Assembly (NCBI GenBank): GCA_002245135.1
Contig: NGBS01000007.1
Location: 1 to 64,000, forward strand
From: Proteromonas lacertae
Taxonomy: Eukaryota
DNA length: 64,000 nt
Direction of reading: 5' to 3'
Part shown: piece after piece, positions 1 through 39,746 of the stretch
How the letters are laid out: every line of letters begins with the position of its first letter
Position numbering within the stretch: position 1 is the first letter of the stretch
Made by a program: the position numbers and the translations under genes
Notes under the pieces: model-generated
What the model saw: the letters and a program-made list of their open reading frames with translations, nothing else
Database searches by the model: none
What the model was told of the DNA's origin: nothing

Positions 1-3000
1 ACTTCATCATCATCAATATATCTACTTGTTAAATTACTAAATTCATCTAAACTACTACCAAATATGAATTCAGGGATTAATAAAACCATTTTTTATTCCT
101 CCATTTGTGTTTATTTCTTGAACTAGCGAATATTCGCGTTAACATTGAGTTTACTTCTACACTTCTAGTTCCTGTTGTATCATGGAAAAATACTAACTTT
201 AATGATTTTGGTCTATATCTTGTGTAATCTTCTTCATCTAATAACCTTGATGATGATGAAGATGTTTCAATTGTCCAATCACATTTATATCCTTCATTCT
301 CAGGGAATATATCATTCCAAGCATCAGCAGCTTCAGGCTGAGATGCATAATCAACCACAGATAAACTAAGATCATTTGACACTTTCACTAAATATATTAT
401 TCTATTGGCAAAACCATCAGTACTCATTTCAATTGTTCCTGATGGACCTACTGATGAGTAACCATACAAAGCGCTTCTAATCTTGACATTATCAAACGAT
501 TTTGTATAAGATGTAATTATATTTGACCATAATGTTACACTTATATATCCATTCTCAGTTTCTGATGTAATAATTGAGTTTTCACCATAACGATCATTCA
601 TCGCTTCAATAAATGATTTACTTGTAGATTTATATGTCATTGTATCAGATGTTTCTAAACCCATTTCTTTAATAAAGGCAGTTAATATATAACTATCAGC
701 TAGACATTTTGCAGGGATATATTCCATTAAATATCTATCTAAAGAAATTGATACAACATATGTTTTTGTCATATTTATATTCTGTTTACACAACCAATTA
801 AACGCTTGAACATTATTTTCTTTAATCACACTTAAAAATATAACTGAATCTTTATCTAAACTTTCAATATCAAAATCATCTGAATATAAGAATCATTTAA
901 ACTACTAAGATTATAAACATGTGTTTGTAATTTTATAGTATCACTCAATATCAACATACTTCTTGAAAACTGAGAACTAAATAGTTCATCATCTTGAATA
1001 ATATATAAATGATTCATATTAGGTAATATATATTTCCAAGCACTTTTCATTAATTGTTCACTAGTAATTTGAGTTGACATCGTATATTTTGGACATGATT
1101 CTGTTGGTGTTTAAACCATTATAGAAGAATAATTTCTTATTATTTTCAAAAATCTCATATACTGAACTACTAATTAATGAATTTCCACCTCCACCAAATA
1201 CTACACTTACTTCAGAAAGTCTACAGAATTCTTCAGCGTAATAAACATATCTTTCTATCTCTGATTGTGCATCTCTTATTAACATTGTAATTTTCCTACC
1301 TATTATTCCGCCACTATTATTAATCTCATCTACAGCTTGGATAATACCTCTTGTTATTGATCTTTCGGTTGTATTGTATTTGCCACTGAATGATGTTAAT
1401 ATACCAATTGTTATTGATGATTCTCTAAATTTATCATAAGCTATATCACCACTTAATTTACATACATATTTTGCATCATTCACCCAATCCTTGTAAGCTT
1501 GAGATTCTATAACTGTAGTAGAACTCATTATCAATTCAAACCCATATTCATCATCATTCTCTATCATTTTTACCAAATAACATATATTGATTTATATAAT
1601 TATCATCTCCCATTGTTAATCTTCCACCACTGGGAGATTTATAATTTAATTCATATAATTTTTTACTCACCAATTGTCCTTTTACACTTTTTACACTTTC
1701 AGCAGCATATATAAATATCTTACTAGATATATAAGCTGTGTACATTACTTCAGTAACAAAATTAGTAACAGATAATATTTCTCTTTTCATTATTTCATTC
1801 TCTGGATTGTCTAAATTAGTAAAATATGTTTCAACTGAATAAAATGGTTTTGCACCTCTATATGCTGCATTTGAAGCAGTATTCAATGAAATTATTGTGT
1901 ATTTATCTCTACTATTACTATCCTTTGTATATTTATCCAATAGTTTATCAACTTGAACATGTATAATAGAATCAGCCAAAAACAATATATAACATCCATA
2001 TGTAGGAGTTGCTGTAACTAATCCTTTCACAATATCTTCAAGTTCTGAGGAAATTGTTGTATCAGAACCATCTTCAGATTAATGCTAATCCACTTGATGA
2101 ATAATCAACTATTCCACCAATAATACTCATGTAACTATTAATATAACTTCCATATTTTACTCCTGCATCACCATTTGCAGTTAAAACGCAATAATGTAAT
2201 GTTTCTGGTTTTTGTTGGTTCAATCAGATAATCAATCACTCTACTTACAAAACTTGGCTCTTTTAACATATAAAACACATTCTTATAGCATTTTTCACCA
2301 CCTGTATAACCAATTTTGGAATAAAAGAATATCTTTCTCTATCAATAATGGACTTAATGAACTAATACAACCATCAGCTGCAGTTGAAAATATTACACCT
2401 TCTTTCACTTGCTTTAAATAATTTGATAATAATTCATAACATACAATATCACTTGATTGAATATCATAGCTTTGTACTGTAACTCTTTTGCCTAATAATC
2501 CATCATTTGTATTTAAAGCATCTAAAACTAATTCAAATACATTCATAACATATTTATCTGTATCTCTTAATCTACCAGATACTGATAAAGCAACAGCTAC
2601 TGTAATAGTTGGAACTACATTACCAGAACCAACAGATGAATCAGTAAAATCACACACTAAACCATTTGTTTCAGGTATATCCCAACTATATGCCAATGGT
2701 TCAAGTATTCTTGTTTGACCATATACATTTGATAAAACATAATTATTACCATCTTTAAGAATTTGCATAACAAAGAATGGTAATGAAAGATGATTATCAG
2801 TAAACATCATTGTAATACCACTACAAGCTTTAAGACTGGCTCTATACAGTTGGTTTGACAATAATTCATTGTTTGTATAATCACCATCTATTTTTGATAC
2901 AGCATTTGACCAATATACTATAGCCAAATATGAACTATGTGCTAATTCATTTCCTTTTATACTTTTACCATAATAATCATCTATATTAGTTCTGAATTTA

Positions 3001-6000
3001 CATTCTGAATTTATTTCGTCATAATATGAACCAGTCAAATAAACATTAACACTTCCTGATAATGTTAAAGAAGGAACTAAATCTCTATCACTTTGAATTG
3101 AAATAATATGAAATCTTTTGTTATTATTCAGTGACAATTTTTGATACTTATCAGCTACTAAACTATCAAAGTAATTGATATAATCAATCGCAGTAACATC
3201 ATCTAATGTTATGATAATTATACATCCATTTTCAATGTGTTTACCTACTATTTCATCTGCATAACTATAAGTTGTACCTTTACCAGATTCTACAAAATCA
3301 TTTCCAATTATTGTATACAACCCTTCATAATTATTAATCAATATCTGATGAATCATTTCATTGGTTTCATCACTTGTTCCTAAGAAATATATTTTCTTAT
3401 CAGATTCAACTTGATCTATAAATGTTGATAATGGTTTTGTAAATAAACTTGGAACTAATCCAGTATAATAGGTATTACTATCACACTCTTGACCTTCAAA
3501 TAATGATGGATACCACAATACTTTTTTAGATTTTCCAGATATTAGCTCTTTATTTATTACATTCTTACAATTTGTATCTGAACAACCAATTATCATTATC
3601 ACATCTTCATCTTTAGCCAATTCTTCACCAATTGATTTAAGATTATTAGAATTTGATGTATCATAAACTGTATAATCTAAATAAGTACCTTTTAAAGTAT
3701 CTCTTTTATTCAAATTCTTAATTGTAGCTATTACAATATCCACTGCATTTAATTCATACTTTTTATTATCACCAGTAATTGAATATAAAAAGGCTATTTT
3801 CTTACTATATCTTGGTATTTTATCACCTCTTATTGTTTTATTATCAACCTTCCATTCACAATAATACAAATTTCCATCATTATTATATTTTGTAGAATAA
3901 GGATTAATATAATTCAATTCATTCAAATGAGTAATTGTTTCTACAGTATGACTGTTGTTGTTTGTATGATAATGAACTTTTACTAAATCACTTATCAATG
4001 ATAATTGATTATTTGTAGTTACTATTGTATCATCAATTATATCACTTAAATTAACATTATGAACAGCATTCAATAATTCTTCAAATGAATATGGAACAAA
4101 TCCTTCTTCACCTGTATCTTCAGTAAAATTTATAGAATTTAAGGCTTTAGCAGCAATTATCACAGATAATAAACCTGAAGAGGATGGTTCTTTATCAATA
4201 AATGTATATTTTTCTTTTGCTATATTATAGACTTCTTGATTCTTAAAATGTGACTTTTGAAGTGTTTCTACAAAATAATGTCCATCAAACAACTCCCAAT
4301 ATTTATTATCATCAATTTCAGTAAGTTTTGTATTAAATGATACGACTGTATATGTATTAGAATCATAATTACTCTCTTTCATTTGTAATAATAAATCTTT
4401 TCCTGCTGATCCTTCTAACAATGATACAATCAATCCTGACTTCATATTACTCACAATGATATTCATCACTACATCCATTTTATAATTTGAAGTTGGTAAT
4501 CTTATCAAATTCTTTACTATTATTCCTTTCTCTTTTAGAAAATATTGAAGATTCAATGCATTTTCATAATCTTTTAAAGTGTCTGAATATAATACTATTA
4601 TATCATCAAATGATTTTTCAGATAAATAAAAATATGCAATTATTGTTATATATTCAGTAAATGGATTTCTCATATATATTACATTCTCACTACATTCATA
4701 TCCTTCAAATGCATATGGAAAAAATAATAACAATTCATTATCATGTAAATCATCTAATACATATCTTCTCATTTTTGAATTTGATAATCCAAATACCACT
4801 CTGTTTCCTGTATCGTTCACAGCTTTTCTAATGAACTCTTTTGCTATATCATTATCAGATTCTGTATTTTGAATTACTGGTAAAATCATTTTGTTGTGTA
4901 TTCCATTATAATGATCATTTACATAATCAACTGCAGCTAAATAACTAAGAAGCAAAGCTGATGAAGAAAATGAAAAAGTTCCTGTAAAGGATATTAAAAA
5001 GTAGAATCTAATTGAATCATAAGTGATTTCATTACCAGTGCCATTGAACCTTGAACAAATTTTATACTCTTCTCTATTAAAATGATTTCTATATACTTCA
5101 GCTTCCCAATTATTCGTAACATTTGATACTACATTGGATGATCCATCTTTATTCTTTTGTAAGACAACAAATGGAAATGGAATACTTGTATCAGTTTTTG
5201 ACATTGTTGTTATGCCAAACGAAGTAGTTAATGAATGATTGCTTAAATATTTGTAAATTCCTAAATTACTAAAATCTACAGTATCAGTATATTCATCAAC
5301 TAATAATTCATAGGCAATGATTGCTCTTGTTTCTACTTTTGGTATTGAATATGATTCACCAAACATATTGATTCCCATATTATATATCTTCGTAGCTGTA
5401 TTTTTATCAGTGTAACATGATGCTAACGAATACTGACCTACATTTCTTACTTTATCAACATCTGGGAATATACTCCAACTAAATATTGGGAAATCTTTAT
5501 GAGCATCTTCTAAACTAGTGTAAACAGTACCGAATATCTTTTGATATTTAATGAAGAATAATTCATAACTTTTCTGGTTTGTTAAATAATTTAAAAATAC
5601 ACCGCCATTGGGTATGTATAATCTATATGAGCTAACAAAATCAGTTATTGAATCTTCTAAAGAATCAGTATCAGATTCATTCACAACTTTATGTTTCTTA
5701 AGATAACCACCTAAACTGGAAATTGTATCTTTTATCATAGTCAATTCATTCTCTGATGTACTGACACTTGTAATTAACATCACATCTGTTGTGTAATGAG
5801 TTAATATATAGGCAATATAAGGGATAATCTTTTGATTTGGAAATGAACCTAATTCCATTCTATAGACATTACAATAATGAATAAAAATATACATTCTATT
5901 ATCACATATATCTCCACTTTTATCAATTATTGATATTAATAGCAAATCTTGTTTTTCTGTTAAGAATTGTTTTTGTTTCTCTAATGAACATGAGGTTATT

Positions 6001-9000
6001 ACTACTGTTGTTATATTTTCAGGATCAAAATCATCACAATAATATTTTGTTAATACCTAAATAAGCAATATAAACAATAAATATCTATATACAATATTAT
6101 AATCTCTTTCATTATAATTGGCTAAATACAAATCCAACAAAAACAGAATTGATTCCTCATTACTATTAATAACTAAATTTATGTTTAATAATTCAGAGGC
6201 AGTTTCTTCTAATTCACATGTTGAAGTATCTCCATCATTTCTCTATAACAAATAAAAACAAAAAATATATATACATAAGCTAAAAATGAAGTCAAAGTCA
6301 TTGGGTTTATGGTTTTCAACAATTTATAGTATTCTCCATTTTGAATTTTTACTAACACATAAGAATTAGAACAAATCATATCATCTCTTACTTTTATTTC
6401 TCCAACTGGTAAATTCAAAACTAAACCTTTAATTTGCCTTTTTAGTTCATCAAAAGTTTCATCTTTTGCTTTTGCAAATGCATTTTTCAGAATCATTAAA
6501 GCAGTATAAATGTTTAAAGTGTGTTCATTCAAAAGATCATCATTATCACCAAATCTTTCAGTAAATTCTGATATAAAATTTTCATTTTCACTATTCGTTT
6601 GACTATCTTTTGTATATGAAACAAAGAATGCATGTCCTTCCCATATTTCTGGATCTACCCATTCAATTAATACATCTAAACTAATAACGGTAAATTTATC
6701 AGATTTCATATTCTTTTCATTCAACATTTCTATAAAATCAGTAGTTTCACTTCCTAACACAGTAAATATCATCAACCTATCAGTGATAATATCTTTCATT
6801 GAATCAGTTATATTATCAAACGAATAAGTAGAATTCAAATAATATCTAGAAGTCTTTAAATCTCTCATTGTATCAGCTGTAATAGCTATTGATTCTCCAA
6901 CACCATGACAAAATGGATTATCACACATAACAATAGCTAATGTCTTTGATTGCGAAAATTGCCAAACAGTTGCTATTGAAGCAAATGCATAATGATTAGG
7001 AAATCTTCCAACTTGAACAATATTTTCATAACATCTCATTCCTTCACTTGGATGAATACTAAAGAGCAATTTATCATGTTTCTTTAATATTGGAGCAAGA
7101 ACATCTCTTTGTCCATTTGTGGTTGTACCAAAATAAGCTAATAAGTTTGGATCATCACTATTCTTTTCTACATATTCTTTCATATCATCAATGGCTGAAA
7201 ATATTTTGGTGGACATTTTCAATAATCTTCCATTTATTCCTTCTTTAATATTAATATAGTCATTTATTATATTATTATAAAGTAAATAATAATTTAAATA
7301 ATGTTGGAAATATGAATCAGTGACATATAAGAAAATAATGTGATAATATGGATAAGATTTACTTACTCCTTCTAACCATTCACATTTAGTACTTACATCA
7401 ATAAATGCATTAGTATACATAACATAAGATGATGATAATTCAACATCTATTCTCTTACTTGCATTATTAACTCTACCAATGTGAAGTTGAGATGAATCTG
7501 TACCTTGCGAGTTCCATTCAACATTCCCACCTGGACCTAACATTGCTGTAGTATATATAATCATTTGGTTAATCTTATCATGATCTAAACTTCTTGCTAA
7601 TCGAACTGCATATAATAACAGTCTAATATTTATGTAACTAAATCCCATTGTTGATGTTATATGTTGTTCTTCATCATAATCTAAATCAAATAGTTCTTGT
7701 TGAAATGTTTTACTTTCTGTTGTATTTAATTCATCAAAATAATATCCAATCACATATGAACCATCATACTATTATAATACATAACAAATACAATATATAA
7801 TACATTTTCCCATTCATTATTGATAATATTTTCATCCAATAGAAATGACAAAACTGGATATGTTTCAGTATCTTTAACAACAGAATGATAATATTTATAA
7901 AACATCTTTTGATAATATCTTTCAACTAAATTTACAACTAAACATCCTTCAGGTAATCCATTCCTTTCAGAACATTGACTTAATATTTTTGTACAAACAT
8001 TCAAAGCTTGTTCTTCATTTACAGCTTTCATTTGTTCATAAACAATCTCCTGAAATGAATCATATTCATTTGTTATATTAATTATAGTGTTTAATGCGTT
8101 TGCTGAGAATAAAGAGTCACTATAAACAATGAACAATCTTTTAGTTGTAACAATATTTGTAAACTCTTGAAGGATGAACTTCCACATTGAATAAATACTT
8201 AATCCTTAAGAAAGAAATTAAAGAAAAATACTTTGCTGTATATTATAAAAAAAATGATATTGGAATCACATTCTTTTTACAGTAATTACTTGCATCAGGT
8301 TTTATTCGAACATATGTATAATCTTTGATATTATTACTTTCAATCATCTCTAAGAAGTTTGTAGCATCTTCAATAGAAGAAGTACTAAACATTGCAATTA
8401 AATTAAACTGTGTTCTGTAATATAAATATTCTTCAAACACTTTTTCAGTACCAACTGATAAATCAATATATAATATTTCTAACCTTCTATTCATAATATA
8501 TCCCTATTAAAGAATAACAATAAAATAATATACTTCCTTGTTAATACTATTCTTTGCTGCTTGAAATGCATATCCTATATTATTATCAGAAATTGTCAAT
8601 TCTTTGATTCTTTCATCTTCACTAAAGAAATTTCTATAAGAAAATAATATAATATTCATTGTATCAGGTTTCATCGATATATTGGATTTTAATTGATTAC
8701 ATATATATTCTTTTGGTAATCCATCAATATATACATAAGATACACCAATTATAGGCTTGAAAGCTTTACTATTCTTCATACTACCTCCTGTATCTATTTC
8801 TCCAAAATCAACTATTCCAATTAATCTATTACCTTCATTTAAACCAACTTCTATTGTTTGATCACCTGCTGTATTTTTATAAATAGTAATATAGTTATTA
8901 TTTCTATATGTATAATACAATATATCACTTCCACTTGAGAAATCATTCAATATTTCTTTTCCTATTGTATAATATAATCGACACATTTCATATAATTGAA

Positions 9001-9899
9001 TAGCAGATAAACTAAAATCTTTATTTGCTAAAGTATCAACAGGATCTTGTGCATTACCTATATCAGTAATTAACTCTGATGGTAGTTCTGTATTTTCACT
9101 AAGAAACCTTGATCCTTTTGCTTCAGATGTTGATAATAATAAATCTCTTGGAACTGTTGGCATATTGATTACAACCACAGTTTGTGAAGATGGAGGTGTG
9201 TAACTATTCCATTCTTTTACTAACTCGACATCAGTATAATAGTTCAATATTGTAACTGCAGATATTTTTGGATTGTTGTTAAAATATTTGTTAATGTCGT
9301 CAAAAAGTTGATTTACTTCAGTTGAAGGTTTATCAAATACAATTATTGGTGTAAGTCTTAAAAAATTTAATACTCTATTCAAATCATTAATCAAGCTTCC
9401 TAATTCCACTTTTTTTGTTGAATCATATGCTATTATTATATTTTGAAGTTGATTTATTTTTCCATTCATTGCTAAATAATATATACAACTATTTATATAT
9501 ACAGAGTAAAATAGACTCTGAAATATCATATCCAAATATGATATTTGAGTAACAAGTGGTATTGGGATATGCTACAGCGTTCCATACATATATACCATAT
9601 TCTACTGCTATTTTATTTATCATATCAAAATCTGCATCTGGTATATAAGCAAAAACAGTGTCAATCTTCTTTGACTGCTGTTCTTTGAATAAAGTTGATA
9701 GTGTACTTTCAGATATATCTATTATTTCCTTATTCAGATTTAAATTGTCAGATTTTGAGATATAGTTGATTAAATACCTCATGTCATCTGGTACATCCTT
9801 ATCAACAACAAAAAGCCTATTTACATCATCTGACAATGCAACAGAAAAATAACATAGAAATATAAAGTAAGATATAACACCAATTTTGTGTAACGACAT
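1..9899 (-). CDS. Giant secreted/membrane receptor with at least 9 tandem AmiC/UrtA-like type-I periplasmic-binding (Venus-flytrap) domains; paralogue of 10352-22005; 3' end lies outside the window
   Basis: ATG at 9899 starts a signal peptide (MSLHKIGVISYFIFLCYFSVALS). ORFs 9489-9899, 8507-9535, 8243-8494, 7750-8187, 6209-7753 and 2295-5945 join through short GT-AG introns (e.g. 9472-9502, 7769-7803). Repeat motifs include ITIGILTSFSG...AVDEINNSGGIIGRKI, FPYAFEGYECSENVIY and YPSLFEGQECDSNTYYTG. Several 1-nt indels lie between about 70 and 2320. No 7TM domain is visible within the window. Confidence 0.85.
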
Positions 9900-10351: not shown

Positions 10352-13300
10352 ATGAATAATAGATATTTATATTTGTTTGTAATATTTTGTGTGGAAGTTG
10401 TGGGTATCAAGATTGGTTACATTATTAAAGACGGTTCTTCTTCTGAATTTGAATTTCTTTCTGCATATATATTAAAACTTAACAGTAATCAAAGAGAACA
10501 AATAGAATTAATAAAAATAGATAAAAATAGTAATGATTATATCAAAATCTTGAAAGATCCTGATCTGTCTGTTGCCACATCGTTATGTCAAGAAAATGTG
10601 GATGATAATATGAAAGTTGACCTCGTTAATAACAATGTGGTGTTATGGTGTGCAGATTTAGCAGTAGTTGGTGATTGTAGTCGAGATATGATTAATGGAA
10701 TGTCAGTTACACCATCTTTAGAGCAATGTATAATTATTTGTATAATTTAATAGCCATGTACATACTTGCAACGCAATATCCTCTTAATTTTGCTATTATA
10801 TTGGATAAGGCATTAGTAGTATCACCATTTTACTATGAAAGAATAATTCACTTAATAAAATTCTACAATGGTTCAGTTGTTTTTGACATTCATAATACAA
10901 CATTAACTGCAGACAATTTAGCCAAATACGAAGATAAGTTAAAAGAATATAAAGACGAAGGAGTAACAACTATTTTATTGCACAACAAAATGGATAAAAT
11001 AATGGAAATATTTAATCAAAGAACAGATAAATATTTAGCTCCAAAATATCCTATGTTATTATTAGAGGGTGGATTAACATATGCTGAAATTAGTGCTGAT
11101 AGTAGATATAATAGTAATTATGATGTTGGTAATTTATATATTCGATCTTATCATTCTGAAATTAATAATGAAAAGAATACTCTTTATAAACAAATTCATA
11201 GTAGTGATCCATCTTTTGCTAGTTTAACTGAAAGTAAAGGTGCAGTTTTGTATATATTTATTATTATTATTATTTATAGAACTGGTGTTGTTGATTTAAT
11301 AGGTTATGCAGCTGATCATGTTCCTACAAGTAAGATATACACAATGTTTACTTATTTGTATGATAAACCGTTTGAATTTGCAGGTGGCAATATCATTTTA
11401 AGAACTAATCATATGATGACTTCAACTCATTATATTGGCATTGTCACGAAAGATACAACTAGTGGTGATGTTAAATTAGTATATAAACATATAATTGAAC
11501 CAGATGTTACATTTGAACCAACACAATTTGAGAATGAAATTGTTGAAGTTGGTTGTAATTTTATCAATAACCCTGTAGATGGATCTTATAAACCTGATTA
11601 TTTACCTATTACATTCATGTTAGACATGAGTTTATATCAATCTAAAGTAGTTTATCAATTTATGAAAATGTATTTTGATAATATCAATGCAAATAAGCCA
11701 ATATTAGATAAGATATTATTCCCACTGATGTATAACATACTTGATGGAGCTGAAGCAATTAATAAGAAATTATTAGAAATGATTGACAAATATGACGCTA
11801 GAACAATATTCTTAATGACTTCAGAAGAAGATAGAGTTCAGTTATACACATTTTTAAAGGATTATGATACAGAAATATTCTACATTGGTCCAAATGAAGC
11901 TGAGATTTGTACAAGTGATTTGATATTTGGAGATTTTGTAAATGAAGTTTATGTTGAAGAAATATATAAATATGTTAGGAATATTGGTAAAATAAGAATT
12001 GCTTTAATTGGTAGTCCAATGTCTTATGGTACTCATACAAGGACATTAATAAAAGAATATTTCAATGAACAAGGAATGGATATAAAGATTGTATCTGAAC
12101 AGAATATTCAAAAACCAACAGAATTAGAAGCAAATGTGACTGTTGATTCGTTTATTGAATTGTATGGTTTAGTGAATGATACAGTTGTTATTATTACAGC
12201 AGAAAATGAGTATTTACCATATTTATATAAAGCATTTTATCAAAAAGGTATTAAAACTGCAAATGGTTTTACATTTATTTCATTGAATTTAGATCAATTG
12301 ATTGTAGATGGAGCAGGTAGTGAAAATGTATATAGAAATTTATTATTATTATTATTATATAGTTTAATGGAACAATGTTTATCAGCTACAGTAGTAATGA
12401 AATGAACTCGCAATCATTAGATATATTCTATAAATCATTTTCTGATTTAACTGGAAAAGAAGTACCATTTACACAAACTATTGCTTTTATTTTCAATTTA
12501 GTTTCTATAATTACTGATGCAATATTGTCATCTTCATCTGTTTCACCTGAGTATTATAGAGAATATTTGTATCATACAATCTTAAAAGAACCTTCATATG
12601 GTAAATATGAGATATATTCGAATGGTATTGCTAGAGGTGAAATACATATGTTTCAATTAGATGAGAATAATTTAGCTGAAATTGTTTATTCACCTAATTT
12701 TGTAAGTGAAAGTTATGCATTTGTGAATAAGTCTAAAACTTGTTCTTTTAGTAATGGAATAATGAATGAAGGATATACTGATATTTATTATATTGGAATT
12801 ATCTATAATTTGAATTCAAAAATAGATATTACTACTGTTGATTCGTTAAGTTTAGTTTTAGAATTAATCAATTTAGATGGTGGTTTAAATGGAAGAATTG
12901 TATTACCAGCAACACTGAAATGGATAGTAGGAGATAATGAAGATATGAAGAAAGAAATGGAACATCTATTCAATACAACAAATCCATTATTTGTAGTTGG
13001 AACTGATGATGACAATTCAAAGAAAGTATTATCTCCAATTCTAGAAAAATATGATAAATTATGTTTTTCATTGTTAATTAGTGGAGGTGAAACTGAACAT
13101 CCGAACATAATTCAAATGAATGCAATTCCTAATCAATTATTTTCACTACCATTAATGTATTTTTTACAGAAAACACCAAAATATATCATATTATATGATT
13201 CATCAGTTGATTATTCAAAGAAATTATATGATTATTTGATTCTATATGTTGAAAGTATTAAACAGAATCCTGCCTTTGTTGTTGATGTAGAAAGTAACAA

Positions 13301-16300
13301 AACTTATGATAAGATTGTTGATGATATTGAGGGAATTGTAGGAAATGATGAAGCTTTTATTATTGCATTTATTGATCAACAGACTGAACCATTTCTTACT
13401 GAATTTGATTCAAAAGGATTATCTAAAGATCAAATATCAATTATTCTAATGGATTTAACAACAAGAGTCTATTTAAATGCAAACAATTTGACTGTATTTT
13501 ATGGTTGCTATTTTTTCACATCTTATTCAACAGAAGGAACTTCGTTATTAAATACTGCTTTAATCCAAACAGTAACAAACTATAAAGGAAATCCATTGCA
13601 ATTATTGGATGATGTAACAATGGCATTTTACAACTCATATTTATTTATGAAAGCAGCAATAGGAGTTAATTCAAATGATTTGAGCAGTTATACAATAAAG
13701 TCATATTTCTATTCGCATCCTGTTGATACTCCTGTTGGACCATTGAATTTAGAAACATCGAATTATGTTGATATTTATCCACACATATTGTTATATTTGA
13801 ATGATAGTCAACCTATTATAGCTAAAATGACTTCTGCTGTATCTCCACAAGTGTATTATAATCTATTACATGATGATCAATTTATATCAACAGATTATTC
13901 TAAGAATCCACCAGATATTCAAACAAAAATTAATTATATTGGATTAGCTTTTATGATGAATATCGATGATCGAGTTCATTATCATGCTTATATTGATTTT
14001 GCCTTAGCAATTCAAGAAATTGAGAAATATAATAGTGAGGGAGGAATAAAAGAATACAAAATTAGATATGAATTATATAATTGTCCTACTACAGAAGAAA
14101 AAGCTGCTGGTTTGTTGATAAATATGAAAGTTAGAGGGTTTACTTACATAATTGGTGGTTGTGGACCAGAAACAAAACAGCTTATCCAAAAATCAATTAA
14201 ATCTATCGATATGATTTTATTTTATACCGAACTTAATCCTGGTAAAGAATGTTTACAAAATATTATTTATACAACACTTTCTCCATATCAAGAGATATAT
14301 CCTATTGCTCTTAGATTGTTATATGAAAGAGTAACAAATCCAATATTCGTATATGAAGATTCTTCATATTTAGCTTCAAGAGTTGAATTAATGAGATCTA
14401 TATACACTGGATTTGATGTAAATATAGAATTAGAATTTGCAATAAATACTGAGAATTACCAACAATCTATTATAGATTCAGTAGAACAGTTGAGGAAAAG
14501 AATAGTAATGACATCACATATAATATTGTTATTACAATATGAAAGAGTTGATTATTTCCTTGAAATGTTTTATAAGAAAGTATGTGATATAAATGGAATG
14601 AGTTTAGATGATTGTATTAATACTTATTCAATTTATATTATTGATGAAAGCCAAAGTGTTTATAATGGAGAATATGCAAGAGGAAGAACTGTTTATTCTG
14701 CCTTTATGAATGATGGTTCTGAAGATTTCTTGAAATTCTATGAAGATTCACATAATGTTGGTGGTTCAAAGTTTAATCCTAATTTTTATGATTCATTTTC
14801 TTCTATTGAAACTGATTTTCTGTTGACTTCGATGAAGAATGCATTATCTGTGTCATTATCAGATATAAGAAAACAAATTTATGTAACATCCATGAATTCT
14901 GCAGTTGGTTTAGTTGAAATAGATTCAGGTAATCATGTGATTGATGCTCTATCGATTGGTTATGTTCAGAAAGATGGAACAGTTAAATATCAAGAGACTT
15001 TGACAAAAACATGGGAAACAAATACATATAGAACTACTTTGAATATGAAGGAATATGAATATTGTGATTGGAATCCATCAACTCCTACAGAAGAACAAGG
15101 AAGTGAAAAGATACAAGAAGTTGTAAATATCGGAGTTGTTATACCAATTAGTTCATATTTTATTGAAGAAGGAATTTCATTTATTGCTTCATTATATGCT
15201 GGTTCTGTTGATATTAATAAAAATGGAGGAATAGAAGGAAAGAGATTGAATTTTATATTCTTCTCTGATGGAAATGATCCAGAGATAGCAGCTGATAATA
15301 TGAAGAAATATATTGATGAATATGGAATAAGTGCATTTGTTGGTGGATGGACTACTGAAGTAAGAAAAAGACTAGGTGAAGTTGCTGTTGAAAAGAATGT
15401 TTATATGTTTTATCCACCTGATTATACTGGTGATGTTTGCCAATTTAATGGAATATTCTTTGGTGCTCCACCAGTTTTATATTACATTTTATATCCTTGG
15501 ATTCTAGCTCATAAAATAGGTAAATTGATTTTGATCTATTCAACCACTGAGTATTCTACAACATTTGCTAATTCTTTACAGACTGAATTAGGTTATTATG
15601 CTACTCAATTTGATTATATTTATTCAATTCCACCTGAAAATAGTGATGTCTCTTCTATTATAGAAATTATAAAAACTGTAGCTCCAGAAGGAGCACTTAA
15701 TTATCTCAATATTAGATGGTGATTCAGCAATTAATTTACTCTCACAAATGTATGATGCAGAAATGTCATCTGAAAAGTATGTTGTAATGACTAGAGGTAT
15801 TGTTAGAAAAAAAGTAAATGAAATTGGTATAAAAGCAGCTGGACATTATAAAATTGATTCTTTAGATTTAAATTATGATAATCAAGAAGTACAAAAAATA
15901 ATTGCTAATGAAGTTGAACATTTATCAAATTATTTTACCTATTTGACTGATATTACACCAGTTATGGCAAGAGGTTATTCAATGGTATTGTTCTTAAAGG
16001 AAGTGTTAAGACAAATGATTGTCTACAATGATGATAATATAGGACATTATATTTATAATACAACAGTAATGTCTACTATTGGAAGTTTAGAAATAAATGA
16101 AAATAATAATGTTAGAGTTCCAATAATTATTCATCAAATGACTTATAAAAATGGTAATGTTGAATTTAAACAAACATATGAAAGTAGTTTAATTCAAAGT
16201 GATCCTTATTATTCAATCTATAGAGATGATACAACAATGAAGAAATGTGTAGCTGAATATAATCAATTATTGGATGTAAAAGTAATGAAATTTGGTCTAT

Positions 16301-19300
16301 TCTTCTCCACTACTGGTTCATTAGCTGAAGTTCATAGACCTGTAATTTATGGTGCAATTATTGCTATTCAAGAAATATTAGATGCAGGAGGTGTATTAGG
16401 AATATTACCAGTGGTTGTATTAACTGATTATGCATCTGATGCTTCATTAATTGATGGATTAGCTGAAGATTTATTCTCTGATCCTTTAGTATCTGTCGTT
16501 ATTGGATGTTATGATACTGATTGTAGAGATATATTAGAACCATATGCTAAACCATATGATGCTATTTATTTCTATCCAAGAAAATCTGTTGGTGAACAAT
16601 GTGATAAATATACTTACTACATTGGTCCAGCTCCAAATCAATATGTTGCACAGGTATTGGAATATTTAATTACACTATCAGTCGATAAGAGTTTAGTGAT
16701 GATAAGAACATCTGATGATGATGCAAATACATTATCAAGAATAGTGAAATATGAAGCTGATGGTTTATTTGTAGTTAAAGATAATATAATGATTAATACA
16801 ACTAATCCAATCACAAATGATTTGATTATTCGAATTAAAGGTATGTTACCAATTGGTGGTGTTATAATGTTAATGATAAACGATCAACAAGATTTACAGA
16901 CATTTTTAAGAACTTATAATAATTTAGGAATTGATCCAACACATTATCCAATCGTTGATGTTATGTCTGAAGTGGATCATTATGAACAGTTTGATGCACA
17001 TTTAAGAGCTAATGTCTACTTATTAAATAGTTATTTTTATGATATTAATAATGAAGCAAATACAAATTTCTTAAAAAGATCAAAAGATTATACAACAATT
17101 GAAAAACCAACAGCTGGTACAAATGCAGCGTATGGTGCAGTACAATTTCTTCTACAAGCACTGAAAGATACTGGTGAAGTGAATATTACAGAGATAAGGA
17201 TCAGGTTAATGACAACATCAATCACAGATGGAACAGGTGTTATTACGTTAAGTGAAGCTCATTACCCAAATCTACCAATATTTATAGCAAAATATAACTC
17301 AGATGGAAGTGATATAAAGACAGTTTCAGAGAATTTCAATTTACAATCACCTCAAGCATGGAATTGGGATTTAACAGAAAGTTATGGAAAGAAATGCAAT
17401 TGGTTACCTGAAAAAGAAGATAGTTTCTATGATGTTAATGCTGTTAGATTAGTTTTAATTGCTACAATCACTGGAGGATTATCTGAAGCTGCATTAGGTG
17501 CTGTTGATGCTTTTAAATTAGCAACCAATGAATTGAATGGTAAAGGAGGAGTAAGAGGATATACAATTAAACCAGAAATTGTTGATACACAATCAAATTC
17601 AGATGAATGTGTTAGTTTATTAACAAATTATGTGAATAATTATAAACCACCAGCTATATTCTTCGTAGGAAATGAAAAATGTAGAAATTCTGTTCAAAAT
17701 TTATTGAAGGAAAATAATGTTATGTTATTCCATTTCTTCCAACAAGATTTAGGTTATTGTAATGAAAATGTGATGATTGCATGTCACCATATATCTTTGG
17801 ATAAACCATTGATAAATGCAGTTCGAAATAGATTATACAATGAAATATTAATTATAGCTGGTGATAGTTATTTTGAAGATAGTGGTGAATATATCAAAAC
17901 ACTATTAGATGAAACAAAAGTGCCAAATACTTACTTTAGTAGTGTTGATGAAAATGTGGCAAATAAGATTAAAGAATGGTATGATAAGAATGTTACAAAT
18001 GTTGCAATTATCTACAGAGGTTTCTTTGATGGTTTTGATTTTATAGAAAAGAATTTGACATATTATAATTTAACTGAACCAAGAGTCAGATTAATAGTAA
18101 TAGAACCAACCAGTACAATTTATCTATCAGAATATAGAAATTATGAAGTGTTTGAAGCATATAGATCAAGTGATGATTTTGAAGAGAATGATGCATTTGC
18201 AGATAAGATGAATGCAAGAATAAATAAAGCAACAACCACTGTTACTGATATTACATCAGCTTTATATTCGAGTGTGTTGTTATGGGCAAATTCAGCTGAA
18301 GAATCAGATAGTTTTTTACCTTCAAAAGTAAGAGTTAAGATTAATACAGTTGTGTTTAAAAGTCCAGAAGGTGAAGTGAAATTTGGTGTTAATAATTATT
18401 TAACAAGAACAATTGCAGATTCTTATATAGATGAAAATGGTGAGAATGAATTATTACATTACACTCAATATATGCATACTCCAGATGCATTTGGTAATGA
18501 TTTAAATGGTGGAATATTTAAATTGTGTAACTTTGATGATATTACAATAGAAGATGGAAGAGAAGTAAATACATATGTGATTGGTATTATTTTATCATTT
18601 ACTGGAGCATTAAGAGAAAGTGAAAGTTCAGTTTTTGATGCAATTTTATCAGCTATTATCTATATGAACAATCAAGATAAAGTATTAGGATATTATTTGA
18701 ATTATAAAGTGTATGATATTGCTTCAGATCCAAACAATTATGCTATTCAATTAAAGAAAGCATTTGATACAGATGGAATAAAATATATATTTGGAGGTGT
18801 TAATCCTGATCATTATGATTATATAGCCAATTATATGAATGGAAGATCTGAATATTTCTTTTTCTGTGGTTATACTTATAGTATAACTTGTCCATCCCAT
18901 GTTATATCTGCCCAATTATTACCATCTCAAATAGCTGAAAGCGCAATTAGAAAAGCGATGGAAGAAGCAACATCAATGGTTCTTATCTATTCGTCAAGTA
19001 ATTTAACATCAACAGTAAATGAATTTATATCATCTCGAATGGGTAATTTGAATTTGTTGTTGATGGGTAATATTCTATATGACGATAGTTCAAATGCTCA
19101 ACTAATCGAAAGATTATCAATAGCTAATAGTGGTGGTTATATAATAGCTACATTAGATTCAAAAGAGAAATATATATCATTATATAAAGATTTATGCTCA
19201 TTTGGAATGCTTCCTCCAAATTGGGTTGTTTTGGCAACAATGTTTGATGAGAATATATTATATGAAGTAGATACAAAGTGTTTGAATGGAAATGAAGTAA

Positions 19301-22005
19301 TTGGATCATATTTTGAATCAGTTGGTAATTCTGAAACTAATAGTTTTTCAGTTCCATATTTATCTTCCATATTTAATGAAGAAATTCATATTAATATTGG
19401 CAGTAATAAGTATATAAGATCAGAATATGAATCAGCCTATTCTTTAATGCAATATTGGAAAACACTCATAACAAATGCCAATAGTTTTGATATATCTACC
19501 TTTGAACTATTATATGATTATTATGTAGATACACCATCAACATCAGTTGAATTAGAAGAGAATAATTTCATGAAAAGAATAGTTTATAGTGGTAAAATCA
19601 ACAATAGAGTAATCAGTATTAATTGGATGCCTACTTCATACATTGAGCCAATTCTTTATAATCAATGGGAAGGAGATTTGAGAGGATATACTTGTGATTG
19701 GAATAATGAACTTAGTAATACAAGGAGACAATTGCAAGATAATGGTAATACTGGTGATAATACAAATAATAAAATTGGTCCAATGCATAACAATAATCCA
19801 ATTCATGTTGCATTTATACATGAAAGTGATATTGGTACTCAAAGTGAGAAGTATAATCTATTGATTCAGAATATAGCAATTGATGAAATTAATGATGGAA
19901 ATGGTATTTTAGGTAGATTATTAATTCCAGATCATTATTTTGTAATGTCTTCCAAAGTATATTCACAATTAAGAACAATCATATCTGACACTGAGAATTT
20001 GAAAATGATATTTGGTTGTATGTCACCTAAATGTAGAACTGAAGCAGAAAGATATTTAGAAGCCATTAATAGTAATGTATTGTTTGATTATTTAGGAAGA
20101 GATGATGGTTTTGTATGTAGTACATATATTGTTACAACAGGATTAACAATCAATCAAAAGACAGAACCAACATTAGATTATATACATTCAATGGGATTAT
20201 TGGATTTAATGGTAATAGGTAATAGTGAAAATTCAACAGTAATAATGTCTGAAGTAGTAGAAAGACAAGCAGTGAAATTAGGAATAAATTTCTTAGGATC
20301 ACAATTATTTTCACCATATAATCCAGTGGAACTATCAACAATTATTAATGTATTAGAAGAAATGTTTTCTAAAGCTGAAAGATTTATAATAATTGATTTA
20401 TTTGCTGGAGGTGAACAAGAGAAATTCTTAACAGAATACTTCGCTGCTACTACCATAAATAGAGATTCAATAACATTATTCTTGTTGAATTATGATGCTC
20501 ATGATGTATCTTCATCAAACATTAACTCTTTATCTGGTTCATATATTGTTTCAAGTTATAATGCTGTGATAAAAAGTACAACTGCTGGAGCATTTTCAAC
20601 ATCAGTTCAACAGATATATCAGAATGCAATTACATTAGGTGAAATATTAGAAACAAGTTACAGTTCAATATACTTATGGAAAGCTGCAGTAGAATATGCT
20701 AAAAGTAATGGTGATTCTAATGATGAATGGCCTGATTATAGATATGTAAGATTAAGTATGAAATATGTGAGTTATGATGGTCCAGGTGGTACAATGACAA
20801 TGCAATATAACAATCATGCAAAGAGACAGATTTACATATTTAGAATGTCAGGAACAAATCGTATTCAAGTATTTCCAAATCAAGGAAGAGCTGCTTCATT
20901 TGATGCAAAATTGACATATATGAGTGATGAAGATTGTAATTTAGGTAAGAATATCGTTTTATATGAGTTTAACTCTGCTTTACAATGGACTGTAATTGTA
21001 TTTATGATTGTTGTAATGCTTTGTGCAATTGGTATAACAGGGATTATATTAATGTTTAGAACATTCTAAAAGTAATCCAATAGTGCTTCACCATTATTTT
21101 TATGTTATACACTTTTAGGTGTGATTTTACTAAGTGTTAGTGGTATGATATTTACATTATATCCGAATGATGTAGTTTGTGCAATGAGAGTATGGTGGTT
21201 AGCTTTATCAGTTGATTTCTTATTCAGTATATTGTTCTGTAAAGCATGGAGAATTCATAAATTATTCAATAACAAAGAAATGAAAAGGGTAAAAATTTCA
21301 AATATGATGTTAGTTAAAATTATAGCAATTATCGAATTAGTTCAAGCATTATATTTGATGATTTGGTGGTTAGTTGATAGAGCAGAATATACTGAAACTT
21401 TTAGTGTTGATTATTCCAATTATTTAGATGATTATTACATTAGAGAATGCACAGCCAATGATATATTCACTTATATCGAAATTGTTGGAGTTGTATTACT
21501 ATTTTTATGGGGAGCTAAATTAGCTTGGGATACAAGAAAAGCATCATCAGAGTTTAATGAATCAATCAGTTTAGCATCCACAATTGTGTTGATGATTATT
21601 TTAGGTATATTGGAAATTCCATTGAATGTATTAATGGAGAAACAACCTGATACATTGTTAATGTTAAGAGGTTTAGGTGTAGAATTAGGATCATTTGCAA
21701 CTTTGATTTTACAATTTGCATCAAAGTTAACATACTTATGGGTGAATGTAGTTCAAAATAGTACAACATTAGGTGGATCTTCAAGCTTATCATCAGCCAA
21801 TTCAAAGAGATCAAGAAGTTTAGCAAGGAAAGGAGCAACTAGAGGAAGATTTTCTGTAAAACCTGATGTATTTAATTGTGGAGATATTGGTTTATGTACT
21901 TTATCAATGCCTGATTTGTTTTATATACTTGGTGAAAGTAATTCTATGATGAGATCATCATCTCAAATGTCTGGAAGACATACTTCAACATCAAGGATGG
22001 GTTAG
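10352..22005 (+). CDS. Giant class C (GABA-B-like) GPCR, about 3,850 aa: signal peptide, 9 tandem AmiC/UrtA-like Venus-flytrap domains, 7TM and Ser-rich tail
   Basis: Starts MNNRYLYLFVIFCVEVVG. Introns at 10728-10753, 11250-11279 and 12328-12362. A 1-nt insertion near 15698 and short indels at about 21061-21080 interrupt the frame. The 7TM region (about 20980-21740) has class C motifs SASPLFL, CAMRVWWLAL...LFCKAWRIHKLF and AWDTRKASSEFNES. Repeat 6 is strongly AmiC-like: FGLFFSTTG...GGVLG...IGCY...YIGPAPNQ. Confidence 0.9.
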
Positions 22006-22284: not shown

Positions 22285-23169
22285 CTAAGTTAACAAGAGT
22301 GGTAGAAATATTTCATTTGTAAATGATTTACAATATGGAGGGGTTTTCACTAACTCTATATTACTGACTATTCGATTCCACATCATTTCATATACTCTTC
22401 CACATACATATCCAGGATCATTTCTAATATACGATTTATTATAATTATTAACAGACCATTGCTCCATATTATTCAAAAGTGAAATATATTCATCTTTAGA
22501 ACGAATCTTCAAAGAGTTTGCATTAACAAAGAATGAACTACAACACGGATAAGAAAATTTTGTAGGTATTTCTGAAGGAATAGAAGTGTTCTTAAATAAA
22601 TCAACAAAAATACTTGATAATACATTACCTTTTAATGTTGGACAATAATTCCAAACACATTCAATACCTCCATATAATTCTTTTGATAAATAATTACTAT
22701 AAGAATTTAACAGTTCTCCAATCATTCTTTCTATGGGTTGAATATAATGCCAAGATTTTGAATGTCCATGAATAAAAATATAATTTTCAGCTAATGGCAC
22801 GTCATAATTGTCAATAATAAATTTTATGTAAGGGCCAGACTCTTTACATTGATAGTTCTTTTTTTCTTTATCACATGATAATTTAATCACTGGAAGGTTT
22901 AAGTAATTTAATTTGAAAACCTTATCATCACATGATGAATATAGAATCATCACTCTATGCTTGGGTTTTACGGATTGTGTTGTGTTTATCTGATTCAATG
23001 TATCCTGTAACTGTGTATTATTTTGTAAATAAAATACTTCGTTTATACTACCACTTGTCCTGTTATACTTCATCTTCTTATAATGAGCTGAATACCCTTC
23101 TTTAAACAAATAATATGAAAGAATTATAAATGAAATAATAATAACTATTGAAAACAACACAAAATTCAT
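22285..23169 (-). CDS. DUF3431-like type II membrane protein
   Basis: Intronless 294-aa ORF with an N-terminal TM and the motifs ESGPYIKFIIDNY...YIFIHGH...WH, CCSSFFV...I..RS and GRVYEMMW. Confidence 0.7.
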   Translation of the reverse strand: MNFVLFSIVIIISFIILSYYLFKEGYSAHYKKMKYNRTSGSINEVFYLQNNTQLQDTLNQINTTQSVKPKHRVMILYSSCDDKVFKLNYLNLPVIKLSCDKEKKNYQCKESGPYIKFIIDNYDVPLAENYIFIHGHSKSWHYIQPIERMIGELLNSYSNYLSKELYGGIECVWNYCPTLKGNVLSSIFVDLFKNTSIPSEIPTKFSYPCCSSFFVNANSLKIRSKDEYISLLNNMEQWSVNNYNKSYIRNDPGYVCGRVYEMMWNRIVSNIELVKTPPYCKSFTNEIFLPLLLT

Positions 23170-23296
23170 AGTAGCTATTAAATAAATTAATAAATGTACA
23201 ATCGTCTAAACAACCATCGATTGTTTATATTTTATTTATTTCATTAAAAACAACAATAAATACAAAAAATAAGTAAATAATAATAACAATAATAAT

Positions 23297-26721: not shown

Positions 26722-27884
26722 TTAATGTGATTGATTTTCAACATACTTTTGTCTAGCTGCAGCAGCAGCACCTATAATACCAGCATGAGGTCCAGCAGTA
26801 GCAGAAACAATTTTAACCAATGGTTTCATAATAGTCCAATTATATTTTGAATATTCTTCATTAACTTTATTAAACAACAAATCACCTGCTTCAGCCATTC
26901 CGCCTGTCATAACAATCACTTGTGGATCAAATGTTCTACAAACATTCACACAACCAACTGCTAAGTAAGATACTGCATAATCAACTACATCTTTAGCTAA
27001 TTCATCTCCTTTACCATATGCTTCAAATACATCTTTACAAGTGACTTCTTTATTTTCTTGTTGAATTGTTCTTAAAACTGATGGTTTATTACTTGATTCT
27101 ATCTTTTCTTTGGCAATTCTTGCTACAGCATTGGCAGATGTATACTAAATATATAAAGCATTAATTATTATATATACTGTTTCTAAACATCCTTTCTGTC
27201 CACAACCACATTTTCTTCCTTCTTTTTCTACAATCATATGACCAGTTTCAGCTCCCATATCAAAACCACCATGTAATATTCTACCTTCTTCTACATAACC
27301 ACAACCAACACCACTGCCTAATGTTAACATTACTAAACTCTTATATCCTTTACCACTTCCTACCCAATACTCTGCGGCTGCTGCTGCATTACCATCATTT
27401 TCTAAAGTACAAGGAATGCCTGTCTTCTTGGATACATAGTCTGTAATTGGAGCATTCTTCCATGGGAAGTTTGCTGCTGATTTTAATACTCCGTGCTATA
27501 TAATATTATATTAGAATTCAATTATATACTTCATAATCTAAAAGTCCTGGACTTCCAATACCAATTCCAGCAACATCTTTCATATTAAGATTGGATGAAG
27601 ATAATGCATCTTTTGTTACTTCAACTAATAAATCCATTACAGACTCAAATTTGTAATCATCAATTTTCTTTGAACTTCTGCTTATTAATTTTCCTGTATT
27701 ATCAACTACACCAGCTTTTGCATTAGTAGCACCTAAATCAATTCCAATAAACAATGGATTTGTCTTTGCATATACTTTATTGTTTCTGTAACATATATAT
27801 CCAGCATAACCGAATGCTAAAACACTTGATGCTCTATAAAAAGAATAAACAATAAATATTATACCCAATAACTCTTCTAAACAT
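26722..27884 (-). CDS. ROK-family sugar kinase (glucokinase-like) with N-terminal extension
   Basis: Motifs IGIDLGATNAK, GIGIGSPG, LENDGNAAAAAE, LTLGSGVGCG, ETGH...CGCGQKGCLE and AGIIGAA. Spliced start reads MFRRVIG|ASSVLAFGYAGY. Confidence 0.9.
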
Positions 27885-38209: not shown

Positions 38210-38259
38210 TATAACAAATCAAATATGGTTTGATGAATATCAAAACGAATATAATTCTA

Positions 38260-38270
38260 TTCCCGCCAAA
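38260..38270 (-). promoter_or_regulatory. E2F-like site (TTTGGCGGGAA) upstream of CDC7
   Basis: Plus-strand ttcccgccaaa ends 4 bp before the CDC7 ATG and matches the E2F consensus TTTSSCGS on the minus strand. Confidence 0.55.
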
Positions 38271-38274
38271 ACCA

Positions 38275-39610
<1,336 letters not shown>

Positions 39611-39746
39611 TTTTTCTCACTAATAATTTAAACATTATTTATTTAGAAATATAATTTTGGGAGGAAACACTTTGGAATGTGAGATAAAACCAAAAATAAA
39701 GAATGATAAAAGCTTGGCTTGATTCTATAAAAACATCAAAAAATCA

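What the first reader, a model, noticed from the sequence alone, without database searches (positions are those of the whole stretch)
10352..22005. Class C GPCR with nine tandem bacterial-type amide/urea-binding (AmiC/UrtA-like) domains
Seen in sequence: nine repeats of about 385-400 aa start near 10410, 11605, 12787, 13935, 15125, 16285, 17443, 18574 and 19801. Most open with a beta-strand followed by 'IN..GG..G', and the ninth joins a GABA-B-like 7TM domain with no cysteine-rich domain between them. Established knowledge: characterised class C GPCRs (mGluR, GABA-B, CaSR, T1R) carry one Venus-flytrap domain. Motifs such as GCY, YPxxxEG and GPAPNQ are typical of bacterial AmiC/UrtA solute-binding proteins. 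Inference: this is an ~3,850-aa multi-ligand nutrient or chemosensory antenna, possibly built from a bacterium-derived domain, in a probable gut protist. I know of no described receptor with this architecture, but could not search.
Basis: partly seen in the sequence, partly recalled or inferred. Interest (0 to 1): 0.93.

Follow-up and report, generated by a model that had tools for sequence, protein, structure and literature searches.

The report
Nine-flytrap giant GPCR from urea binders
A eukaryote, likely a single-celled stramenopile, has a giant surface-receptor gene in which nine copies of a domain related to bacterial urea-binding proteins are strung in front of a GABA-B-like seven-helix membrane domain; here all nine have lost the urea-contact residues and likely sense something else, while distant relatives of the same design keep those residues and would be urea sensors.

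Summary
The architecture is real. 10352-22005 (+) encodes about 3,850 aa: signal peptide, nine type-I periplasmic-binding (UrtA/AmiC-family) domains and a class C 7TM domain with no cysteine-rich domain. It has three short introns and two frame breaks that uninterrupted relatives span, so the breaks are probably assembly indels (no reads were available).

It is not a one-off. AT-rich relatives match domain by domain. Three distant single-ORF proteins also have nine domains plus 7tm_3, Capsaspora CAOG_05347 has three, and a paralogue sits head-to-head on the minus strand.

'Urea/amide-binding' fails for this gene: its domains keep 0-2 of UrtA's 8 urea residues. The three distant proteins keep all 8 in 20 of 27 domains, and their membrane-proximal domain is always degenerate. 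The module's closest prokaryotic kin are picocyanobacterial-type UrtA.

Best reading: a likely chemosensor on a long stalk, with new ligand pockets in a few repeats (D5, D9). The Peripla_BP+7tm_3 pairing was catalogued in 2014; ten literature searches did not find the nine-fold UrtA array. This scan has no earlier look-alike. New variant of a known kind.

The parts
10352..10408 (+). Start codon and likely signal peptide (an alternative in-frame ATG lies at 10293)
   Evidence: Hydrophobic stretch at aa 7-25; aligns with the N-terminus of P0018 from residue 4. No dedicated signal-peptide predictor was run.
10409..11604 (+). Domain 1, most diverged PBP1 repeat (holds introns 1 and 2)
   Evidence: 56 bits against a best shuffle of 3.3; 22% identical to P0018 D1
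10728..10753 (+). Intron 1, 26 nt, GT-AG
   Evidence: P0018 aligns without a gap across the junction
11250..11279 (+). Intron 2, 30 nt, in frame, GT-AG
11605..12785 (+). Domain 2 (holds intron 3)
   Evidence: E 3e-19; groups with P0018 D2 at support 100
12328..12362 (+). Intron 3, 35 nt, GT-AG
12786..13934 (+). Domain 3; the only repeat lacking both cysteines of the inferred tail-to-lobe disulfide
   Evidence: E 2e-27; cysteine positions
13935..15125 (+). Domain 4
   Evidence: E 6e-18; position-specific clade
15126..16284 (+). Domain 5; keeps pocket Trp120 and a YPxDY motif with Asp in place of UrtA Gln144; candidate ligand site
   Evidence: W in 7 of 7 and D in 6 of 7 same-position domains; pocket against background P=0.07
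15697..15700 (+). Frame break 1: one extra base, no intron signal
   Evidence: 6 of 6 relatives covering the site align straight through it
16285..17442 (+). Domain 6, the most UrtA-like repeat
   Evidence: E 5e-58; PDB 7S6E E 8e-21; model pLDDT 92.8, top Foldseek hits UrtA/AmiC
17443..18573 (+). Domain 7
   Evidence: E 1e-25
18574..19800 (+). Domain 8 and an Asn/Gly-rich low-confidence linker
   Evidence: E 7e-34; model
19801..20955 (+). Domain 9, membrane-proximal; best conserved repeat; invariant Arg at the Gln144 position
   Evidence: 40-70% identity to relatives, partly on partial coverage; R in 8 of 8, pocket P=0.14
20947..21753 (+). Short beta-strand stalk and class C seven-helix domain with ECL2 hairpin
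   Evidence: 7tm_3 115 bits; best PDB match GABA-B2, E 1e-15; seven helices in the model
21064..21081 (+). Frame break 2 in intracellular loop 1: local out-of-frame patch with two in-frame TAA codons
   Evidence: P0020 and P0016 read through without a gap; the homologous residues appear in a shifted frame (direct reading)
21754..22005 (+). Ser-rich cytoplasmic tail and TAG stop
   Evidence: 38% identical to the P0020 tail over 72 aa
9900..10351 (.). AT-rich gap of about 450 bp between the two divergent start codons; possible shared promoter
   Evidence: Direct reading; promoter function untested
1..9899 (-). Head-to-head paralogue: signal-peptide-like start and at least six clear PBP1 repeats, several introns and frame breaks; runs off the window, so its 7TM is not seen
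   Evidence: Pfam/NCBIfam hits; domain map; collinear with P0022 and P0025, which end in 7tm_3

Best explanation
This is one gene for a class C, GABA-B-like seven-helix receptor whose ectodomain is nine tandem UrtA-family Venus-flytrap domains without UrtA's urea-contact residues, and it likely works as a chemosensor on a long stalk in which only some repeats would bind new, non-urea ligands. Shown: gene structure, fold, class C 7TM, loss of the urea pocket, and domain-by-domain conservation in relatives. Inferred: (1) a picocyanobacterial-type UrtA module, C-terminal tail included, was fused to a class C 7TM and multiplied, and the tail became the linker; (2) a cysteine pair would staple each linker to its domain, giving a semi-rigid chain; (3) domain 9, the best conserved repeat and degenerate for urea in every relative, would be the coupling module to the 7TM; (4) D5 and D9 are the best candidates for new pockets; (5) the head-to-head paralogue may be a heterodimer partner, as GABA-B1 is for GABA-B2.
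For: The model aligns with the single ORF P0018 over aa 6-3267 and with P0020 over aa 1247-3843, across all introns and breaks. Repeats are 15-24% identical to each other over long alignments, against 22-70% to the same position in relatives. D4-D9 each form a clade by position with support 95-99, paralogue-type rows included. Identity rises towards the membrane: P0018 22% at D1 to 42% at D9; P0020 43% at D9 and 49% in the 7TM. The TM3 KAWR and TM6 FNES motifs and the TM3-ECL2 cysteines are kept. The D8-D9-7TM model has pLDDT 83 and pTM 0.74, and its top Foldseek hits are GABA-B receptors. 8 of 9 repeats have both linker cysteines and D3 has neither. The membrane-proximal domain scores 0-2 of 8 urea residues in all 12 PBP+7tm_3 relatives examined. 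GC3 of 0.14-0.19 matches neighbouring host genes.
Against: No ligand is shown. Pocket columns are not significantly more conserved than background in any of the six domains tested (P 0.07-0.95), and D1-D3 were not tested. The D9-7TM orientation in the model differs from GABA-B (rmsd about 25 A, TM 0.41), so either the coupling geometry differs or the prediction is unreliable. The frame breaks could be real. No G-alpha gene was looked for, since no genome is held. The trees do not settle the origin: one origin of all eukaryotic domains is not rejected (p-AU 0.59), but neither is a separate origin of the window's clade beside four other prokaryote-type rows (p-AU 0.17).
Confidence: 0.5

Rival explanations
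1. Full multi-ligand antenna: each of the nine repeats binds its own nutrient and all report to the 7TM.
For: Every position has been kept as a distinct lineage since before the paralogue split. The fold is intact. Rapid pocket change is what diversifying chemoreceptors would show (inference). Prokaryote-type family members also vary: only 10 of 52 have all 8 urea residues.
Against: Pocket columns in D6, D7 and D8 are less conserved than the domain average (0.26, 0.20, 0.26 against 0.35, 0.34, 0.36). D1-D3 are the most diverged. No path is known for a distal closure to cross eight domains.
Confidence: 0.18
2. The ectodomain is only a structural stalk or adhesion/spacer rod. The 7TM is switched by contact, force or a partner subunit, not by small molecules.
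For: All nine urea pockets are lost, and 0 of 76 domains in the AT-rich clade keep more than 5 of 8 residues. Fold residues and linker cysteines are kept. In BvgS the conformation of tandem flytraps sets activity by default (PMC4352136, abstract).
Against: D5 keeps an invariant pocket Trp and a near-invariant Asp, and D9 an invariant pocket Arg. Relatives with the same design keep complete pockets.
Confidence: 0.2
3. The gene is a decaying pseudogene, or is split into separate genes in this strain.
For: Two frame breaks here and several in the paralogue; none in about 830 codons of three neighbouring housekeeping ORFs.
Against: The breaks are small indels with no isolated substitution stop in about 3,850 codons. 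The paralogue's break near 2316 reads as one extra A in an A run. Class C motifs are intact. About one break would be expected in 830 codons at this rate, so zero does not discriminate. Relatives are single ORFs.
Confidence: 0.08
4. The window's domains still bind urea or small amides through a rebuilt pocket.
For: The closest sequences and folds are UrtA and AmiC. The AmiC amide-contact residues were not tested.
Against: In UrtA, mutating any one of S122, Q144, Y190 or N246 strongly lowers or abolishes binding (PMC10392092). The window's domains keep 0-1 of these four.
Confidence: 0.04

Closest known systems
GABA-B receptors (GABBR1/GABBR2), class C GPCRs
   Same: Best PDB match of the 7TM (E 1e-15) and of the D8-D9-7TM model; flytrap joined to the 7TM by a short stalk, with no NCD3G domain.
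   Different: Nine flytraps instead of one; UrtA-family (Peripla_BP_5) rather than ANF_receptor type; predicted flytrap-7TM orientation differs; dimerisation and G-protein coupling untested.
UrtA of picocyanobacteria (PDB 7S6E, 7S6F, 8HIC) and AmiC of Pseudomonas aeruginosa (1PEA)
   Same: Same fold (TM 0.77-0.87), 20-24% identity, and the same C-x-W C-terminal tail, reused as the linker.
   Different: Urea residues absent (0-2 of 8); far below the TIGR03407 cut-off; repeated nine times in an intron-containing eukaryotic receptor, not an ABC importer subunit.
Non-metazoan class C GPCRs with bacterial-type binding domains (Krishnan 2012, PMC3251606; de Mendoza 2014, PMC3971589; gut fungi, PMC5168858; Dictyostelium Grl, PMC10445921), including Capsaspora CAOG_05347
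   Same: PBP-clan ectodomain on 7tm_3 without NCD3G. 'Peripla_BP//7tm_3' is a listed architecture. CAOG_05347 is in the 2012 supplement; it has three UrtA-family domains here and the best 7TM score outside the AT-rich clade (125 bits).
   Different: Reported N-termini reach 1,667 aa; this one is about 3,490 aa. The passages read do not describe a tandem UrtA array or a urea pocket.
Receptors with two tandem Venus flytraps: Bordetella BvgS (PMC4352136) and trypanosome adenylate cyclases (PMC6027212)
   Same: Tandem flytraps in which membrane-proximal and distal domains behave differently (BvgS abstract); the role of the trypanosome flytraps is still unknown.
   Different: Two domains, not nine; output is a kinase or cyclase, not a GPCR-type 7TM; no sequence relationship was tested.

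Membership tests
Class C (Glutamate) GPCR | 7tm_3 domain above the curated cut-off | tested here: met
   115.3 bits against 33.5
Class C (Glutamate) GPCR | Seven membrane helices with TM3-ECL2 cysteine pair and TM3/TM6 motifs | tested here: met
   Seven helices in the model; C869 invariant, C959 and K890 at 90% or more in 15 rows; alignment to GABA-B2. That these motifs mark class C is recalled knowledge.
Class C (Glutamate) GPCR | Large N-terminal Venus-flytrap-type ectodomain | tested here: met
   Nine PBP1 domains
Class C (Glutamate) GPCR | Constitutive dimer | not tested
Class C (Glutamate) GPCR | Activates heterotrimeric G proteins | not testable with these tools
   Needs an assay; no genome held to look for G-alpha
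mGluR/CaSR/T1R subgroup | NCD3G cysteine-rich domain between flytrap and 7TM | tested here: not met
   No NCD3G hit; D9 ends about 20 nt before TM1
GABA-B receptor subgroup | A single ANF_receptor-type flytrap | tested here: not met
   Nine Peripla_BP_5 domains; ANF_receptor 22 bits, under its cut-off; GABA-B flytrap ranks 47th for D6
UrtA urea-binding protein | PBP1 fold of the UrtA/AmiC family | tested here: met
   Top 10 Foldseek rows for D6 are all UrtA or AmiC. The model was built on an alignment of such proteins, so it leans their way.
UrtA urea-binding protein | W120, S122, Y141, Q144, E146, Y190, N246, S274 | tested here: not met
   0-2 of 8 in each of 9 domains; column mapping checked on P0083, which has all nine published residues at the published numbers
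UrtA urea-binding protein | TIGR03407 score above 492.75 bits; subunit of a UrtABCDE importer | tested here: not met
   352.6 bits summed over six stretches in the longest frame; neighbours are eukaryotic genes
AmiC amide receptor | Amide-contact residues | not tested
   No residue list was obtained from a call

The most novel reading that the evidence does not exclude
An undescribed, widespread eukaryotic family of giant class C GPCRs was built from a cyanobacterial-type urea-binding module repeated up to nine times. Members with intact pockets (P0013, P0192, P0193) are multivalent urea-activated GPCRs that signal through a ligand-blind proximal domain. The window's gene and its head-to-head paralogue are a derived, heterodimeric version retuned to other solutes.
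Probability: 0.3. Interest if true: 0.92.

Novelty: new variant of a known kind. Interest (0 to 1): 0.76.

Why it matters
The characterised class C receptors in the papers read have one flytrap, and the model of activation rests on that. A receptor with nine, kept position by position across divergent relatives, raises a testable question: can distal flytraps signal, concentrate ligand, or only space? The relatives with complete UrtA pockets give a direct experiment for a urea-sensing GPCR; my searches found none described. The family also looks like a separate capture of a bacterial binding protein by a class C 7TM, with the donor type still recognisable.

Tried and rejected
No genome is held for the window. 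No sequencing run was listed, which says nothing on expression. The protein-atlas tool did not complete.

TAA-as-amino-acid recoding was rejected: the homologous residues sit in a shifted frame, and the long frames hold no other in-frame TAA. An intron at either break was rejected: no GT-AG candidate lies there among the 5 found, and relatives align without a gap. Bacterial contamination was rejected: spliceosomal-type introns, host-like GC3 and eukaryotic neighbours. Recent tandem duplication was rejected: repeats are 15-24% identical over long alignments.

The Blastocystis downstream motif (recalled) is not enriched: 6 found, 6.3 expected. No tRNA or Rfam hit. The plasmid search gave ordinary urtA genes at about 43-45% identity and no donor clue. 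The 77 genome loci held no cyanobacterium and 0 of 62 had the C-x-W tail, so the donor sample is thin. The strict four-motif regex matched only 1 of 62 bacterial loci, so it was not used as a test. One row (D1-2 codons) was read in the wrong frame and is ignored. Position-by-position matching between the window and P0013/P0192/P0193 was not found, apart from a weak long-branch grouping of proximal domains (support 89). Searches of this scan's notes by sequence and by place were empty.
Full report
Observation. The region holds five long + strand frames, not one ORF. Three junctions are AT-rich GT-AG introns of 26, 30 and 35 nt, like the short introns of neighbouring genes. Two are frame breaks without splice signals: one extra base near 15699, and a short out-of-frame patch at 21064-21081. 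With X at the breaks the model is 3,853 aa: signal peptide, nine domains of 377-409 aa, 7TM and a tail of about 80 aa. Pfam and NCBIfam give Peripla_BP_5/6, sub-threshold UrtA hits and 7tm_3, and no NCD3G. D1 is the weakest repeat but real: 56 bits against a best shuffle of 3.3.

One gene. A search of 1.84 billion representatives with D6 gave 1,097 hits at E 0.001 or better, of which 150 were listed. I scanned 59 of those 150, plus P0001, with Pfam: 7tm_3 together with Peripla_BP_5 occurred in 8 of 24 (P0034 under the cut-off) and 3 of 36. P0018 is a single ORF that aligns with model aa 6-3267, across all three introns and break 1. P0020 is a single ORF covering aa 1247-3843, across both breaks. 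All 6 relatives covering break 1 and both covering break 2 read through. No AT-rich record holds D1 to 7TM in one piece; several end in intron-like AT-rich sequence. Continuity therefore rests on the overlap. The breaks look like assembly indels, but no reads were available, so decay is not excluded.

An old, ordered array. The repeats are 15-24% identical to each other over long alignments. Each is closest to the same position in relatives: 36-70% to P0014 and 22-42% to P0018. In a 120-row FastTree, D4-D9 each form a clade by position with support 95-99, including rows of the P0022/P0025 subfamily (D1 left out; long branches flagged). Identity rises towards the membrane. A paralogue lies head-to-head at 1-9899 on the minus strand, about 450 bp away. 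It is closer to P0022/P0025 (26-32%) than the finding's gene is (22%). Those two lack the W-R of the TM3 KAWR motif, which hints at unequal subunits; the paralogue's own 7TM lies outside the window.

A wider family. A search with part of P0013 among proteins of 2,059-6,554 aa gave 8 hits. P0013 (3,745 aa, starting inside its first domain), P0192 (4,080 aa) and P0193 (3,909 aa) are single ORFs with nine domains plus 7tm_3 (Pfam counts 10 stretches in P0192 because of an insertion). Their longest contigs are only 180-730 nt longer than the ORF, and their taxa are unknown. Capsaspora CAOG_05347 (P0198) has three domains plus 7tm_3. Its 7TM scores 125 bits against the window's, P0013 111 and GABA-B2 61, but P0192 only 41, so the 7TM does not prove one origin for all. 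P0194 and P0197 carry the same module on other membrane anchors.

Ligand pocket. UrtA binds urea with Kd 141 nM through eight conserved residues (PMC10392092, passages). My column mapping is exact on P0083. All eight are present in 5 of 9 domains of P0013, 8 of 9 of P0192 and 7 of 9 of P0193; in all, 24 of 35 domains of that group. The window's domains keep 0-2. Of 76 domains in the AT-rich clade, 75 keep 0-3 and one keeps 5. Among 52 prokaryote-type single-domain hits, 10 have all eight and the lowest have 2; I labelled these prokaryote-type by size and shape, not by name. The membrane-proximal domain is degenerate in every PBP+7tm_3 relative. Among same-position relatives, pocket columns are not significantly more conserved than background: D4 P=0.28, D5 0.07, D6 0.86, D7 0.95, D8 0.87, D9 0.14. 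D5 keeps an invariant Trp and Asp for Gln144; D9 has an invariant Arg there. These rows may include paralogues with different ligands, which would blur the test.

Origin. 23 of the 24 intact eukaryote-type domains hit P0083 or P0044 best among 114 prokaryote-type rows. P0083 is nearly the Synechococcus UrtA of PDB 7S6E by eye. Both end in a C-x-W tail, found in 3 of 52 singles and 0 of 62 genome loci, which reappears as the linker between repeats. In a 47-row tree, all 21 eukaryotic domains lie with P0044, P0083 and P0059 on one side of a branch with support 96. AU tests reject neither one origin (p 0.59) nor a separate origin of the window's clade (p 0.17). The donor is therefore likely, not shown.

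Structure. D6 folds at pLDDT 92.8, and its ten best Foldseek rows are UrtA or AmiC, with mGlu and GABA-B flytraps at ranks 45-48; the alignment behind the model consisted of such proteins. D8-D9-7TM folds at pLDDT 83 and pTM 0.74, with seven helices, a short stalk strand and an ECL2 hairpin. Its best matches are GABA-B receptors, but at rmsd about 25 A. Eight repeats have both a cysteine near position 90-106 and one in the tail, and D3 has neither. I infer a disulfide; the UrtA paper does not mention one.

Organism. GC is 27% and neighbours are eukaryotic (Sec7, FYVE, kinases). The best named NuoE hits are mostly stramenopiles at 63-68% identity. Short introns and low GC are reported on the Blastocystis side of stramenopiles (PMC12129017, passages and section 5). 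A gut protist is compatible but not established.

Mechanism. Most likely a class C chemosensor (0.5). D9 would couple to the 7TM, the stapled chain would hold distal domains out from the surface, and a few repeats would carry new pockets. Rivals are a pure stalk (0.2), a full nine-ligand antenna (0.18), a pseudogene (0.08) and retained urea binding (0.04).

Prior art. Krishnan 2012 (PMC3251606; passages, section 20, supplement search) lists PBP-clan ectodomains and N-termini up to 1,667 aa, and includes CAOG_05347. De Mendoza 2014 (PMC3971589; passages, first part of the supplementary figures as text) lists Peripla_BP//7tm_3, without species or repeat number visible to me; its file 1 was not searched. 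PMC12716839 (passages, section 9) does not mention periplasmic repeats in its main text; only one supplementary file was held, and its domain table could bear on novelty. I read passages of PMC10445921, PMC12965686, PMC5168858 and PMC6027212 and the abstract of PMC4352136; the last two describe two-flytrap receptors. Ten full-text searches found no description of a nine-fold UrtA array on a GPCR; subscription journals are largely missing from that library.

Verdict. Observation confirmed; interpretation partly supported; new variant of a known kind; interest 0.76.

Noticed in passing
window 1-9899 (-): Divergently transcribed paralogue with at least six clear PBP1 repeats and several apparent single-base frame breaks (for example near 2316); its stretch at 8510-9571 matched nothing in Pfam, NCBIfam or the family profile.
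   Followed up: partly
P0013, P0192, P0193: Nine-domain class C receptors with complete UrtA urea pockets in most repeats; arguably better experimental targets than the window's gene. Taxa unknown.
   Followed up: partly
P0194, P0197: The same UrtA-type module, in intact/degenerate pairs, on other membrane proteins: with Ephrin_rec_like repeats (P0194) or a TRP-like membrane domain (P0197).
   Followed up: no
P0028, P0030, P0033, P0035, P0040, P0042: Prokaryote-like proteins of about 1,500 aa with two Peripla_BP_5 domains plus HEAT repeats and/or a NACHT/NB-ARC-like ATPase domain.
   Followed up: no
window 37052-41177: Two glycosyltransferase family 61 genes close together, on opposite strands; a DUF3431 gene lies at 22285-23205 (-).
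   Followed up: no
window 26722-27144 (-): ROK-family sugar kinase fragment; origin not examined.
   Followed up: no
window 34358-36950 and 47116-48888: Kinase-domain frames next to leucine-rich-repeat frames at two places; possibly kinase-LRR genes of an expanded family.
   Followed up: no
window 58200-58751 (+): Complex I 24-kDa subunit (NuoE/NDUFV2); an unnamed record P0199 is 96% identical, the next hits 71% or less.
   Followed up: partly
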